Assembly (NCBI RefSeq): GCF_048403405.1
Contig: NZ_CP183129.1
Origin: Escherichia coli
GTDB taxonomy: Bacteria; Pseudomonadota; Gammaproteobacteria; Enterobacterales; Enterobacteriaceae
Reading direction: 5' to 3' (one strand)
Length of the DNA: 64,000 nucleotides
Below, piece by piece: positions 15,001-18,000 of the stretch. How positions within the stretch are numbered: the first letter of the stretch is position 1; each line of letters starts with the position of its first letter. The position numbers were made by a program.

Positions 15001-18000
15001 GACATTCTCCATGCCGGGCACGTCTCCTATCTGGCAAATGCCCGCAAACTGGGTGACCGCCTGATTGTCGCTGTGAACAGCGATGCCTCCACCAAACGGC
15101 TGAAAGGGGATTCCCGCCCCGTTAACCCGCTCGAACAGCGTATGATTGTGCTGGGCGCACTGGAAGCGGTCGACTGGGTGGTGTCGTTTGAAGAAGACAC
15201 GCCGCAGCGCTTAATTGCCGGGATCCTGCCAGACCTGCTGGTGAAAGGTGGCGACTATAAACCAGAAGAGATTGCCGGGAGTAAAGAAGTCTGGGCCAAC
15301 GGCGGCGAAGTGCTGGTGCTCAACTTTGAAGACGGTTGCTCGACGACCAACATCATCAAGAAGATCCAACAGGATAAAAAAGGCTAACCGGAAAGCGTTT
15401 CACAGATCTCGCTTCGTACCTGGCAGGCCTATTGACGCTGTTGTTTTTTCAACCTAGAGTAAAGGAACAAGGGTAAGGGAGGATTTCTCCCCCCTCTGAT
15501 GAGTTGTTAGTAAGTCGGGAAACTTAACAGTAACAACACAACCAGTATGATGACGAACTTCATCATAACCCTTTCCTTCTGTAAGGCCCCTTCTTCGGGA
15601 GGGGCTTTCCCGTTTCAGCCCCTTGCTGACTCCCCGATTGTTGATGAGCGCCGGACCCCGCGCAACGCTTTCCCTGAGGCAGTTTTGCCTTCCCCGAGTG
15701 GTCACGCAAAACGCTGCAACAGCCTGATCATTTGCACCTTTTAGCGGAACGCAGATATAAAAAATCCCCGGCTTTTTGGGCCAGGGATATGTGTTAATGA
15801 AACCTTCTTGACGCTGATTTTTTTTCAACCTAAAGTAAAGGAACAAGGGTGAGGGAGGATTTCTCCCCCCTCTGATTGGCTGTTAATAAGTGGCGAAACT
15901 TACAAGTAACAACACAATCAGTATGATGACGAGCTTCATCATAACCCTTTCCTTCTGTAAGGCCCCTTCCTCGGGAGGGGCTTTCCCGTTTCAGCCCTTT
16001 GCTGACTTCCCGATTGTTGATGAGCGTCAGACCCCGCGCAATGCTTTCCCAGAGGCAGTTTTGCCTTCCCCGAGCGGTCACGCAAAAGGCTGCAACGACC
16101 TGAGCATTTGCAGTTTTTTTGCGGAATGCAGATATAAAAAATCCCCGGCTTTTTGGGCCAGGGATGTTCATAGTTGAAAATTTATTCTACGTTTTCGGCG
16201 ACGGGAGTTGTTGAGGTTAAGGGTGAAGTCAATGCCGCCAGCGAGCCGCCAGAAACACCGATTTCATTGAGCAAGGAGTCAATCAGTGGTGCCTGTGTGC
16301 GGTAAGAGAGTGCGGCAGACAATGCCTGTTCTGCCAGGTTTCCGCCACTAACGCTGCCTGATGCTGCATCCCCCGCAGCACCACCTCGGTTTAATCCATC
16401 GACCTGAATAATCTTGATGCCGTCGATAGACTTCATCGGCTCAACGGATTTCTCTATTACTGCAGGTAACGACTGTAATAGCGCCAGTTTGAATTTAAGG
16501 CTGGTTTGTTCATCAGAAAGTACGTTGATAGCGTCGTTCAGCGCACGTTGCGCTTCTGCTTCCGCCAGACCCTTTTTACGCGTAGCTTCGGCTAACTCAA
16601 CGATTGCCGCCGCCTGCATCTCTGCGGCTTCTTTCTCTGCTTTCGCCCGCACGGTCAGTTCAACCGCTTTGGTTTCTGCATCCTGCGCGGCAGCGATTAG
16701 GGCAACTTGTTTAGCACGATCGGCTTCTGCGGTCTGGCGAGTTGTTTCTACGTTTTGCTGGGCGCTTACCGCTTCTGCAAGTGCAAGGTTGGCACGCGCT
16801 TCCGCTTGTGACTGCTGTTCCGATTTGGCGGCAATAGCGATCGATTTCGTCTGGTTGGCGATTTCGGTGACCTGCTGCTGTTCGATCTCTTTAATGCGAA
16901 CTTCACGTTCAGCTTCAACTTTTCTGGAACGGACGGCCTGTTCGCGGTCGATTTCCGTTTCCTGAATCTGTCGTTCAGCCAGAATTCGCGTCTGCTCTGC
17001 TTCCCGACGACGCTCGGCCTCAAAAGCCGCAATTTTCGCATTCTGCTCAGCGGTACGGGTTTTAACCTGCTGCTCCTGCTCAAGCGTCATAAACGCTTCT
17101 TGTTGTTCAATCTCCAGCTTCCGCGAAAGCGCATCACGGTTTTTCTCACGCACCGCAACTTCTACATCCTGTTCAACTTCGTTACGTTCGCGACGACGGC
17201 GCTCCGTCTCCTGCGTCAGCTTGGTTAAACCTTCGGCGTCAAAGGCGTTGTTAGGATTGAAATGTTCTTTCGACGTCTGGTTAAAGTTGGTAAGTGAAAC
17301 GCTTTCCAGTTCCAGACCGTTTTTCGACAGATCTTCAGCTACGGTATTTTGTACTCCCTGCACGAAGTTCTCGCGGGTATCCTGTAACTCATGCATGGTC
17401 ATTTGTGCAGCTGTTGCACGGAGGGCATCGACGAATTTATCTTCAACCAACATACGTAAATCTTCTGGTGATAGCGTGCGTTGCCCCAACGTTTGGGCAG
17501 CGGTGGCAATCCCTTCTACTGAAGGTTTTACCCGCACAAAGAAAGCGACTACTACATCGACGCGCATACGATCTTTCGTAATCAGGCTATCAATGGTTGA
17601 GCGGCTGACTTCCAGCTTCAGAGTATTCATATTGATGGGGATTATTTCATGAAAGATCGGCATCACGATTGCGCCACCGCTCATTACCACTTTTTGCCCA
17701 CCTAAACCAGTACGAACAAAAGCTTGCTCTGCCGAAGCGCGACGATAGAGCCTGGCGAAAATAATTCCAATAATAAACAGAATGCATACGGCAATAATCG
17801 CGGTAAACATCCAGGAGGGCACAGAATTAACAATATCATCCATTATTAAATTTCCTTTTGATTAATAAATTACAATATTTGGGGCCAGGGATTGTTTTCC
17901 GCCAAATATCGCGTTGCAGAAAGTCGGCAAATAATTAACACTTTGTCTCCTTTAGTGAAAATTTTTCCTTCTTCAGGCTCTAGTAGTAAATAATGTATTT

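What the first reader, a model, noticed from the sequence alone, without database searches (positions are those of the whole stretch)
15425..16170. Tandem sib/ibs type I toxin-antitoxin units; two long ORFs in the supplied track are repeat artefacts
Two near-identical units of about 376 bp lie between hldE and yqiK. Each has a strong promoter and an intrinsic terminator on the plus strand, giving a roughly 150-nt sRNA. On the opposite strand, fully inside that sRNA, is a 19-aa hydrophobic peptide ORF: MMKFVIILVVLLLLSFPTY in unit 1 and MMKLVIILIVLLLVSFATY in unit 2. This is the architecture of the Sib antitoxin sRNAs and Ibs toxins, which I recall at this K-12 position. The 130-aa and 113-aa minus-strand ORFs in the track (15454-15846, 15830-16171) are mutually similar only because they read through the repeats. 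The two peptides differ at several residues, so these copies may differ from the K-12 ones.
Basis: partly seen in the sequence, partly recalled or inferred. Interest (0 to 1): 0.5.

Follow-up and report, generated by a model that had tools for sequence, protein, structure and literature searches.

The report
Known sibD/sibE–ibsD/ibsE toxin-antitoxin pair
This is the well-known tandem pair of Sib antitoxin RNAs and 19-residue Ibs toxin genes that sits between hldE and yqiK in E. coli, carried here as minor allelic variants, so it is ordinary and already annotated.

Summary
The observation and the interpretation both hold. A 376-bp unit occurs twice in tandem between hldE and yqiK. Each copy matches the Rfam SIB_RNA model on the + strand (139 and 143 bits, gathering score 56). 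Each carries a 19-codon hydrophobic ORF on the - strand, inside the sRNA. Seven complete E. coli genomes are 100% identical over the locus, and RefSeq annotates both ORFs there as "type I toxin-antitoxin system Ibs family toxin".

By position and sequence against K-12 MG1655, the hldE-proximal unit is the sibE/ibsE orthologue. Its peptide differs from K-12 IbsE by L4F. The yqiK-proximal unit is sibD/ibsD, differing by A18T.

The 130-aa and 113-aa minus-strand ORFs are read-through artefacts of the repeat. They share one unit-relative frame, are broken by 1-bp indels in K-12 and other strains, are never annotated, and match no Pfam or NCBIfam family.

One mildly new detail emerged. In this haplotype (about 3% of complete E. 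coli genomes) the second target-recognition domain (TRD2) is identical in both Sib RNAs, whereas it differs in K-12. This predicts some cross-repression between the two copies, which is untested.

Verdict: already known, low interest.

The parts
15432..15807 (.). Repeat unit 1 (hldE-proximal): the sibE/ibsE orthologous unit, 376 bp
   Evidence: Direct repeat. 96.5% identical to the K-12 sibE unit, against 89.2% to the K-12 sibD unit.
15808..16183 (.). Repeat unit 2 (yqiK-proximal): the sibD/ibsD orthologous unit. Its last bases abut the yqiK stop at 16182.
   Evidence: Direct repeat. 92.0% identical to the K-12 sibD unit, against 88.6% to the K-12 sibE unit.
15432..15460 (+). sibE promoter: -35 TTGACG, 17-nt spacer, -10 TAGAGT
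   Evidence: Promoter scan. Identical to K-12 over the whole promoter. The K-12 SibE 5' end aligns 7 nt downstream of the -10.
15467..15610 (+). SibE-like antitoxin sRNA, 144 nt. Ends are transferred from the K-12 annotation.
   Evidence: Rfam RF00113, 139.4 bits. 140/144 identical to K-12 SibE. Fold -50.6 kcal/mol, z -3.1.
15583..15608 (+). SibE terminator hairpin (11 bp, UUCG loop) followed by a short U tract
   Evidence: Fold. The K-12 SibE 3' end aligns at 15610. Not called by the consensus terminator scan.
15507..15566 (-). ibsE-like toxin ORF, 19 codons plus stop: MMKFVIILVVLLLLSFPTY (L4F relative to K-12 IbsE)
   Evidence: Translations. Annotated as ibsE, WP_001387082.1, in a 100%-identical genome.
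15470..15630 (-). Inferred ibsE mRNA. The 5' end is placed by alignment to the mapped K-12 ibsD start; the 3' end is approximate.
   Evidence: The ibsD +1 and the 163-nt transcript are defined by the primers in Han et al. 2010, PMC2943612. They were mapped through alignment A1.
15637..15665 (-). Inferred ibsE promoter: -35 TTGCGC (15665-15660), 17-nt spacer, -10 AACAAT (15642-15637)
   Evidence: Sequence read directly. Position relative to the ibsD start site from PMC2943612. At 8 of 12 matches it falls below the scan threshold.
15764..15788 (-). Terminator-like hairpin plus T run on the minus strand, inside the repeat between the two units (duplicate of the one after yqiK)
   Evidence: Terminator scan. 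Its role is inferred only.
15808..15836 (+). sibD promoter: -35 TTGACG, 17-nt spacer, -10 TAAAGT. This is the 35-bp 'minimal promoter' region.
   Evidence: Promoter scan. Identical to K-12 sibD over alignment columns 1-83. The K-12 promoter was studied in PMC12956327.
15843..15986 (+). SibD-like antitoxin sRNA, 144 nt. Ends are transferred from the K-12 annotation.
   Evidence: Rfam RF00113, 143.4 bits. 140/145 identical to K-12 SibD. Fold -57.4 kcal/mol, z -4.9.
15959..15984 (+). SibD terminator hairpin
   Evidence: Fold. The K-12 SibD 3' end aligns at 15986.
15883..15942 (-). ibsD-like toxin ORF, 19 codons plus stop: MMKLVIILIVLLLVSFATY (A18T relative to K-12 IbsD)
   Evidence: Translations. 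Annotated as an Ibs family toxin, WP_100249717.1.
15846..16006 (-). Inferred ibsD mRNA. The start at 16006 is aligned to the primer-extension-mapped K-12 ibsD +1.
   Evidence: PMC2943612 primers and text. Alignment A1.
16013..16041 (-). Inferred ibsD promoter: -35 TTGCGC (16041-16036), 17-nt spacer, -10 AACAAT (16018-16013)
   Evidence: Sequence. Homology to the K-12 ibsD promoter region.
16141..16165 (-). Terminator-like hairpin plus T run directly downstream of the yqiK stop. It is probably the yqiK terminator and forms part of the repeated unit.
   Evidence: Terminator scan. yqiK ends at 16182.
15454..15846 (-). 130-aa ORF: a non-coding read-through of unit 1 (artefact)
   Evidence: Listed. 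No annotation. No NCBIfam or Pfam match. The frame is split into 88 + 71 codons in K-12, ME8067 and T7Express.
15830..16171 (-). 113-aa ORF: a non-coding read-through of unit 2 (artefact)
   Evidence: Listed. 75% identical to the other ORF in the same unit-relative frame. The frame is broken in K-12, ME8067 and EcPNK004. No NCBIfam match.

Best explanation
The region holds two tandem type I toxin-antitoxin modules, orthologous to E. coli K-12 sibE/ibsE (hldE-proximal) and sibD/ibsD (yqiK-proximal).

In each module a promoter on the + strand makes a structured Sib RNA of about 144 nt. A weaker promoter on the - strand makes an ibs mRNA of about 160 nt. That mRNA is almost entirely complementary to Sib and encodes a 19-residue hydrophobic peptide.

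Sib pairs with its cognate ibs mRNA through two recognition domains. TRD1 lies in a loop opposite the 3' part of the ORF. TRD2 is the single-stranded stretch opposite the ribosome-binding region. Pairing then spreads and blocks translation, so the peptide is not made. If the peptide is made, it inserts into the inner membrane, depolarises it and arrests growth.

Shown here: the sequence anatomy, the covariance-model match, orthology and synteny with K-12, and conservation of the small ORF.

Inferred from published K-12 and Salmonella work: transcription, repression and toxicity.

The two long minus-strand ORFs are not genes.
For: - Tandem 376-bp repeat.
- SIB_RNA matches at 139 and 143 bits against a gathering score of 56, full model length, + strand only.
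- 19-codon ORFs antisense and internal to the sRNAs.
- The K-12 record has sibD/ibsD and sibE/ibsE in the same yqiK-hldE interval.
- The Sib RNAs are 140/144 and 140/145 identical to K-12 SibE and SibD, and the peptides are 18/19 identical.
- RefSeq annotates both ORFs as Ibs family toxins in 100%-identical genomes.
- 5,415 of 5,426 complete E. coli genomes hold most of the locus.
- The ibs ORF is intact in 21 of 21 units from 12 strains.
- The predicted Sib fold reproduces the published elements: P1, the TRD1 loop, the P6 hairpin over the start codons, a single-stranded TRD2 and a terminator (PMC2943612).
- Mechanism and toxicity come from the literature: PMC2943612, PMC2887945, PMC8309996 and bioRxiv 10.1101/2025.05.26.656083.
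Against: No expression or toxicity data exist for this strain. The + strand terminator has a short U tract and was not called by the consensus scan. The ibs promoter is weak by consensus (8 of 12) and was placed by homology only. The effects of L4F and A18T on toxicity are untested. The 19-aa peptides are too short for the HMM tools here, so Ibs family membership of the peptide rests on 18/19 identity to K-12 and on RefSeq naming.
Confidence: 0.95

Rival explanations
1. The 130-aa and 113-aa minus-strand ORFs (or the 65-aa and 95-aa plus-strand ORFs) are real duplicated protein-coding genes, and the small ORFs are incidental.
For: The ORFs exist, and the two long ones are 75% identical. Stop-free frames of 116-144 codons persist in several strains.
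Against: 1-bp indels split these frames in K-12, ME8067, T7Express and EcPNK004, whereas the 19-codon ORF is intact in 21 of 21 units. No genome among those inspected annotates them. They have no NCBIfam or Pfam match. Their similarity follows from a shared unit-relative frame across a DNA repeat, since their stops lie 376 bp apart.
Confidence: 0.02
2. The modules are decayed relics. The sRNAs may still be made, but the variant peptides (L4F, A18T) are no longer toxic, or the ibs genes are silent.
For: Each peptide differs from the tested K-12 version. The C-terminal residues of IbsC are reported to matter for toxicity (PMC8309996), and A18T is C-terminal. The ibs promoter is weak by consensus.
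Against: ORF length, the double ATG, the ribosome-binding site, the promoter hexamers and the Sib structure are all preserved. The same peptide alleles recur in unrelated strains: WP_001387082.1 in M8, T7Express and STEC299, and WP_100249717.1 in EC11. Positions 4, 17 and 18 vary naturally among Ibs peptides, with 9 distinct peptides in 21 units. N-terminal residues of IbsC other than V5 are reported to be dispensable.
Confidence: 0.06
3. In this haplotype the two modules are no longer insulated from each other. Because TRD2 is identical in both Sib RNAs, SibE also represses ibsD and SibD also represses ibsE. This is a variant of the main explanation, not a replacement.
For: Alignment columns 134-152 are identical in both window units but differ at 3 positions in K-12. 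Predicted TRD2 duplex energy is -30.6 kcal/mol for cognate and non-cognate pairs alike in the window. In K-12 SibE it is -28.5 cognate against -21.4 non-cognate. Han et al. showed that giving SibC the TRD2 of SibD is enough to repress ibsD (PMC2943612).
Against: TRD1 still discriminates strongly (-37 against -19 kcal/mol). The P6 loop, which Han et al. implicate together with TRD2, differs by one base between the units (column 126). No experiment has been done. Duplex energies on excised segments ignore structure and kinetics.
Confidence: 0.3

Closest known systems
E. coli K-12 sibE/ibsE (b4611/b4666)
   Same: Same position next to hldE and the same orientation. The unit is 96.5% identical, the Sib RNA 140/144 identical and the promoter identical. 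The peptide is 18/19 identical.
   Different: Peptide change L4F, which is also G-to-A in the P6 loop of the sRNA. The TRD2 segment reads CUGU instead of AUAC, which is the SibD-type sequence.
E. coli K-12 sibD/ibsD (b4447/b4664)
   Same: Same position next to yqiK. The unit is 92.0% identical and the Sib RNA 140/145 identical. The 35-bp minimal promoter and the first 48 transcribed bases are identical. The peptide is 18/19 identical.
   Different: Peptide change A18T. There are three base changes inside TRD1, mirrored on both strands, one base fewer in the terminator stem and one loop change.
Other tandemly duplicated chromosomal type I toxin-antitoxin loci of E. coli (sibA/sibB, ldr-rdl, zorO-orzO)
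   Same: A small hydrophobic toxin ORF is repressed by an sRNA, and the whole module is duplicated in one intergenic region (PMC2887945).
   Different: Those are different loci and, except sibA/sibB, different families. Rdl and OrzO are not fully overlapping antisense RNAs the way Sib is (established knowledge).

Membership tests
Sib antitoxin sRNA (Rfam RF00113 SIB_RNA) | Match to the family covariance model (sequence plus structure) above the curated gathering score | tested here: met
   139.4 and 143.4 bits against a gathering score of 56, covering model positions 1-147 of 147. Reverse-strand scores are only 29-31 bits.
Sib antitoxin sRNA (Rfam RF00113 SIB_RNA) | Own promoter and terminator giving an RNA of about 140 nt | tested here: met
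   Promoter-like sites. The 5' and 3' ends of the K-12 annotated SibD and SibE align to 15843-15986 and 15467-15610. Terminator hairpin in the fold. Actual transcripts were not observed.
Ibs/Sib type I toxin-antitoxin module | An 18-19 codon hydrophobic ORF on the opposite strand, fully inside the sRNA gene | tested here: met
   ORFs at 15507-15566(-) and 15883-15942(-) lie inside 15467-15610 and 15843-15986.
Ibs/Sib type I toxin-antitoxin module | Peptide belongs to the Ibs toxin family | tested here: met
   18/19 identity to K-12 IbsE and IbsD. RefSeq names both 'type I toxin-antitoxin system Ibs family toxin' in a 100%-identical genome.
Ibs/Sib type I toxin-antitoxin module | Orthologous position of sibD/sibE (yqiK-hldE intergenic region) | tested here: met
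   K-12 annotation and RefSeq annotation of an identical locus.
Ibs/Sib type I toxin-antitoxin module | Peptide is toxic on overexpression, and the cognate Sib RNA represses it | not testable with these tools
   Known for K-12 modules from the literature. No data for these alleles.
Ibs/Sib type I toxin-antitoxin module | Cognate-only repression, through variable TRD1 and TRD2 that differ between paralogues (Han et al. 2010) | tested here: inconclusive
   TRD1 differs between the two window units, but TRD2 is identical in both. The functional consequence is unknown.

The most novel reading that the evidence does not exclude
In this minority haplotype the TRD2 recognition segment of SibE has been replaced by the SibD-type sequence, probably by gene conversion between the tandem copies. 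The two antitoxins would then back each other up by cross-repressing both ibs mRNAs. SibE would also lose the TRD2 match to ibsA that Han et al. proposed for K-12. That would amount to natural rewiring of specificity in a multi-copy type I toxin-antitoxin family.
Probability: 0.3. Interest if true: 0.25.

Novelty: already known. Interest (0 to 1): 0.08.

Why it matters
It matters little. The locus is a textbook chromosomal type I toxin-antitoxin pair, already annotated in RefSeq for genomes identical to this window.

The practical value is for annotation. The two long ORFs should not be called as genes. The two 19-codon ORFs and two sRNAs should be.

The one point of modest biological interest is natural variation. 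Copy number at this locus is one or two. Alleles move between the two positions. Here TRD2 is shared by both copies. This variation could be used to study how paralogous antisense RNAs keep or lose target discrimination.

Tried and rejected
- Tandem Repeats Finder returned nothing. The two-copy repeat was found by the repeat finder instead.
- The consensus terminator scan found no + strand terminator. I relied on the fold and on the K-12 annotated 3' ends.
- Fozo et al. 2008 (PMC2597788), the founding Sib/Ibs paper, is not held. Han 2010, Fozo 2010 and a 2021 review were used instead.
Pfam and NCBIfam scans of the peptides are also impossible for the same reason. Allele recurrence was therefore judged from RefSeq WP accessions in sampled genomes.
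- Loci fetched by accession or in parallel batches did not appear in /data. I recovered them through an DNA alignment alignment file.
- I considered and rejected the long ORFs as genes.
- I did not run the large protein searches on the long ORFs, because the frame-breaking indels already settle the question.
- The weak reverse-strand SIB_RNA, mir-7 and GadY matches fall well below gathering scores and were dismissed as chance or as mirror matches of the palindromic structure.

Full report
**1. The observation**

The sequence between the hldE stop (15387) and the yqiK stop (16182) contains a direct repeat. Positions 15432-15731 match 15808-16107 at 91% identity with 376-bp spacing. An in-register continuation lies at 15739-15809 and 16116-16186. 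Tandem Repeats Finder reported nothing for this two-copy array.

15507-15566 gives MMKFVIILVVLLLLSFPTY and 15883-15942 gives MMKLVIILIVLLLVSFATY. The two long minus-strand ORFs, 15454..15846 (130 aa) and 15830..16171 (113 aa), are reproduced by the mechanical ORF list.

**2. What it is**

Rfam's SIB_RNA model (RF00113) matches the + strand of each unit over its full length. The scores are 139.4 and 143.4 bits, the gathering score is 56, and the E-values are about 1e-30. The reverse strand scores only 29-31 bits.

A megablast of the locus against 5,426 complete E. coli genomes finds most of it in 5,415 of them. Seven genomes are 100% identical and 132 are at least 99% identical. In a 100%-identical genome RefSeq annotates hldE, then two 60-nt CDSs named "type I toxin-antitoxin system Ibs family toxin" (WP_001387082.1, gene ibsE, and WP_100249717.1), then yqiK.

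The K-12 MG1655 record has yqiK, sibD/ibsD, sibE/ibsE and hldE in that order. Window unit 1 (next to hldE) is therefore the E copy and unit 2 (next to yqiK) the D copy. The alignment confirms this:

- Unit 1 is 96.5% identical to the K-12 sibE unit, against 89.2% to sibD.
- Unit 2 is 92.0% identical to the K-12 sibD unit, against 88.6% to sibE.
- The Sib RNAs themselves are 140/144 and 140/145 identical to their K-12 orthologues.

K-12 IbsE is MMKLVIILVVLLLLSFPTY and K-12 IbsD is MMKLVIILIVLLLVSFAAY. The window peptides therefore differ by one residue each: L4F in IbsE and A18T in IbsD. The several differences between the two window peptides are mostly the normal D-versus-E differences.

**3. 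Anatomy**

Transferring the K-12 annotated ends through the alignment gives SibE at 15467-15610 and SibD at 15843-15986, 144 nt each.

The promoters are TTGACG-17-TAGAGT and TTGACG-17-TAAAGT, at 9 of 12 consensus matches each. The sibD promoter and early transcribed region are identical to K-12. In K-12 that 35-bp minimal promoter was recently shown to drive NAD capping of SibD (PMC12956327). This should carry over by inference.

Each RNA folds into the published Sib elements:

- the P1 stem;
- the loop that carries TRD1;
- the P6 hairpin over the AUGAUG anti-start sequence;
- a single-stranded UCCUUCUGU stretch, which is TRD2;
- an 11-bp terminator hairpin.

The fold energies are -50.6 and -57.4 kcal/mol, with z-scores of -3.1 and -4.9. 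The terminator's U tract is short, which explains why the consensus scan missed it.

Han et al. 2010 mapped the K-12 ibsD transcription start. From their primers, the ibs mRNAs should start at 15630 and 16006 on the minus strand and end near the Sib start sites. The upstream hexamers are TTGCGC and AACAAT, a weak promoter at 8 of 12.

The rest of each 376-bp unit carries a minus-strand terminator-like hairpin (15788-15764 and 16165-16141). The copy next to yqiK is in the right place to terminate yqiK, and the other is its duplicate.

**4. The long ORFs**

The two long ORFs are 75% identical over 110 aa. They end at equivalent stops 376 bp apart, so they read the same unit-relative frame.

In a 12-strain sample (alignment A2, parsed) these frames fare as follows:

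- The unit-1 frame is intact in some strains (116-144 codons) but split to 88 + 71 codons in K-12, ME8067 and T7Express.
- The unit-2 frame is broken in K-12, ME8067 and EcPNK004.
- The 19-codon ibs ORF is intact in 21 of 21 units.

None of the inspected RefSeq genomes annotates the long ORFs. They have no NCBIfam or Pfam match.

**5. How it works**

This section is inferred from published work on K-12 and Salmonella homologues and is not shown here.

Sib is abundant and pairs with its cis-encoded ibs mRNA. Recognition starts at TRD1, inside the ORF, or at TRD2, at the translation initiation region. It then spreads into flanking sequence, and either domain suffices (PMC2943612). Unrepressed Ibs peptide depolarises the membrane and stops growth (PMC8309996). 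A preprint reports that Salmonella IbsA inhibits the Fo sector of ATP synthase. Tandem duplication of ibs-sib in one intergenic region is a recognised trait of the family (PMC2887945).

**6. What is slightly different here**

In K-12 the TRD2 segments of SibE (…CCUUAUACA) and SibD (…CCUUCUGUA) differ at three positions. In the window both are …CCUUCUGUA.

Predicted duplex energies for a 19-nt TRD2 probe are equal for cognate and non-cognate ibs in the window, at -30.6 kcal/mol. For K-12 SibE they are -28.5 cognate against -21.4 non-cognate. TRD1 still discriminates in the window, at about -37 against -19 kcal/mol.

Han et al. made SibC repress ibsD by swapping in SibD's TRD2 alone. Some cross-repression between the two window modules is therefore plausible. 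It is unproven, and the P6 loop differs by the base that also causes L4F.

The exact 71-nt P6-TRD2-terminator segment of unit 1 occurs in 167 of 5,426 genomes. This is a minority allele, but one already sequenced many times.

**7. Population context seen on the way**

- About 9 of the 40 evenly spread hits have a single unit at this locus. VTB97379v, EC11 and STEC299 were confirmed, each with a 436-bp intergenic region.
- Alleles change position. CB7453 carries the IbsD-type peptide next to hldE.
- The 21 units encode 9 distinct peptides. Variation is concentrated at residues 4, 9, 14, 17 and 18. This includes the C-terminal codons that overlap TRD1.

**8. Verdict**

The feature is the known sibD/ibsD-sibE/ibsE locus in an already-sequenced allelic form. 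Novelty: already known. Interest: low.

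Noticed in passing
window 15432-16186; loci L007, L010, L011: Copy number at the hldE-yqiK locus is polymorphic in E. coli. About 9 of 40 evenly spread hits carry one sib/ibs unit instead of two, with a 436-bp intergenic region instead of about 812 bp.
   Followed up: partly
L009 (CB7453) 328-387 and 705-764; L006 (EcPNK004): Ibs alleles are not tied to position. CB7453 has the K-12 IbsD-type peptide in the hldE-proximal unit and a ...SFQAY peptide in the other. 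EcPNK004 has ...SFQAY and ...SFHAY peptides. This suggests conversion or recombination between copies and strains.
   Followed up: partly
window 15569-15583 and 15945-15959 (TRD2 segment of both Sib RNAs): TRD2 is identical in the two tandem Sib RNAs of this haplotype, unlike in K-12. The exact unit-1 segment occurs in only 167 of 5,426 genomes.
   Followed up: partly
window 15432-15466 and 15808-15842: The Rfam SIB_RNA model includes about 35 nt of promoter DNA (-35 and -10) upstream of the annotated K-12 transcription start and stops before the terminator hairpin. Rfam hit coordinates are therefore offset from the real RNA ends.
   Followed up: yes
window 15524-15551 and 15899-15927 (+): Additional promoter-like sites lie inside each sib gene (TTAACA-16-TATGAT, 10 of 12; CTTACA-17-TATGAT, 9 of 12). 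The -10 lies on the anti-start-codon sequence. They may be chance matches or a source of shorter Sib species.
   Followed up: no
window 15764-15788 and 16141-16165 (-): A strong terminator-like hairpin with a T run lies just after yqiK. It is duplicated with the repeat, so a second copy sits between the two modules.
   Followed up: no
E. coli genome search: Six of the 19,340 matching places for the sib/ibs locus are on plasmids rather than chromosomes.
   Followed up: no
window 19425-19573 (+): FMN riboswitch (RF00050, 120.9 bits).
   Followed up: no
window 60373-60436 (-) and 7442-7512 (+): Rfam matches above gathering score to ES173 sRNA (99 bits) and naRNA4 (77 bits).
   Followed up: no
window 15388-16181, both strands: Stop codons are unusually sparse in several frames of the repeat. 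Stop-free runs of 76-142 codons occur on both strands, and even after frameshifts in K-12 the pieces stay open. This is why gene callers are tempted by spurious ORFs here.
   Followed up: partly
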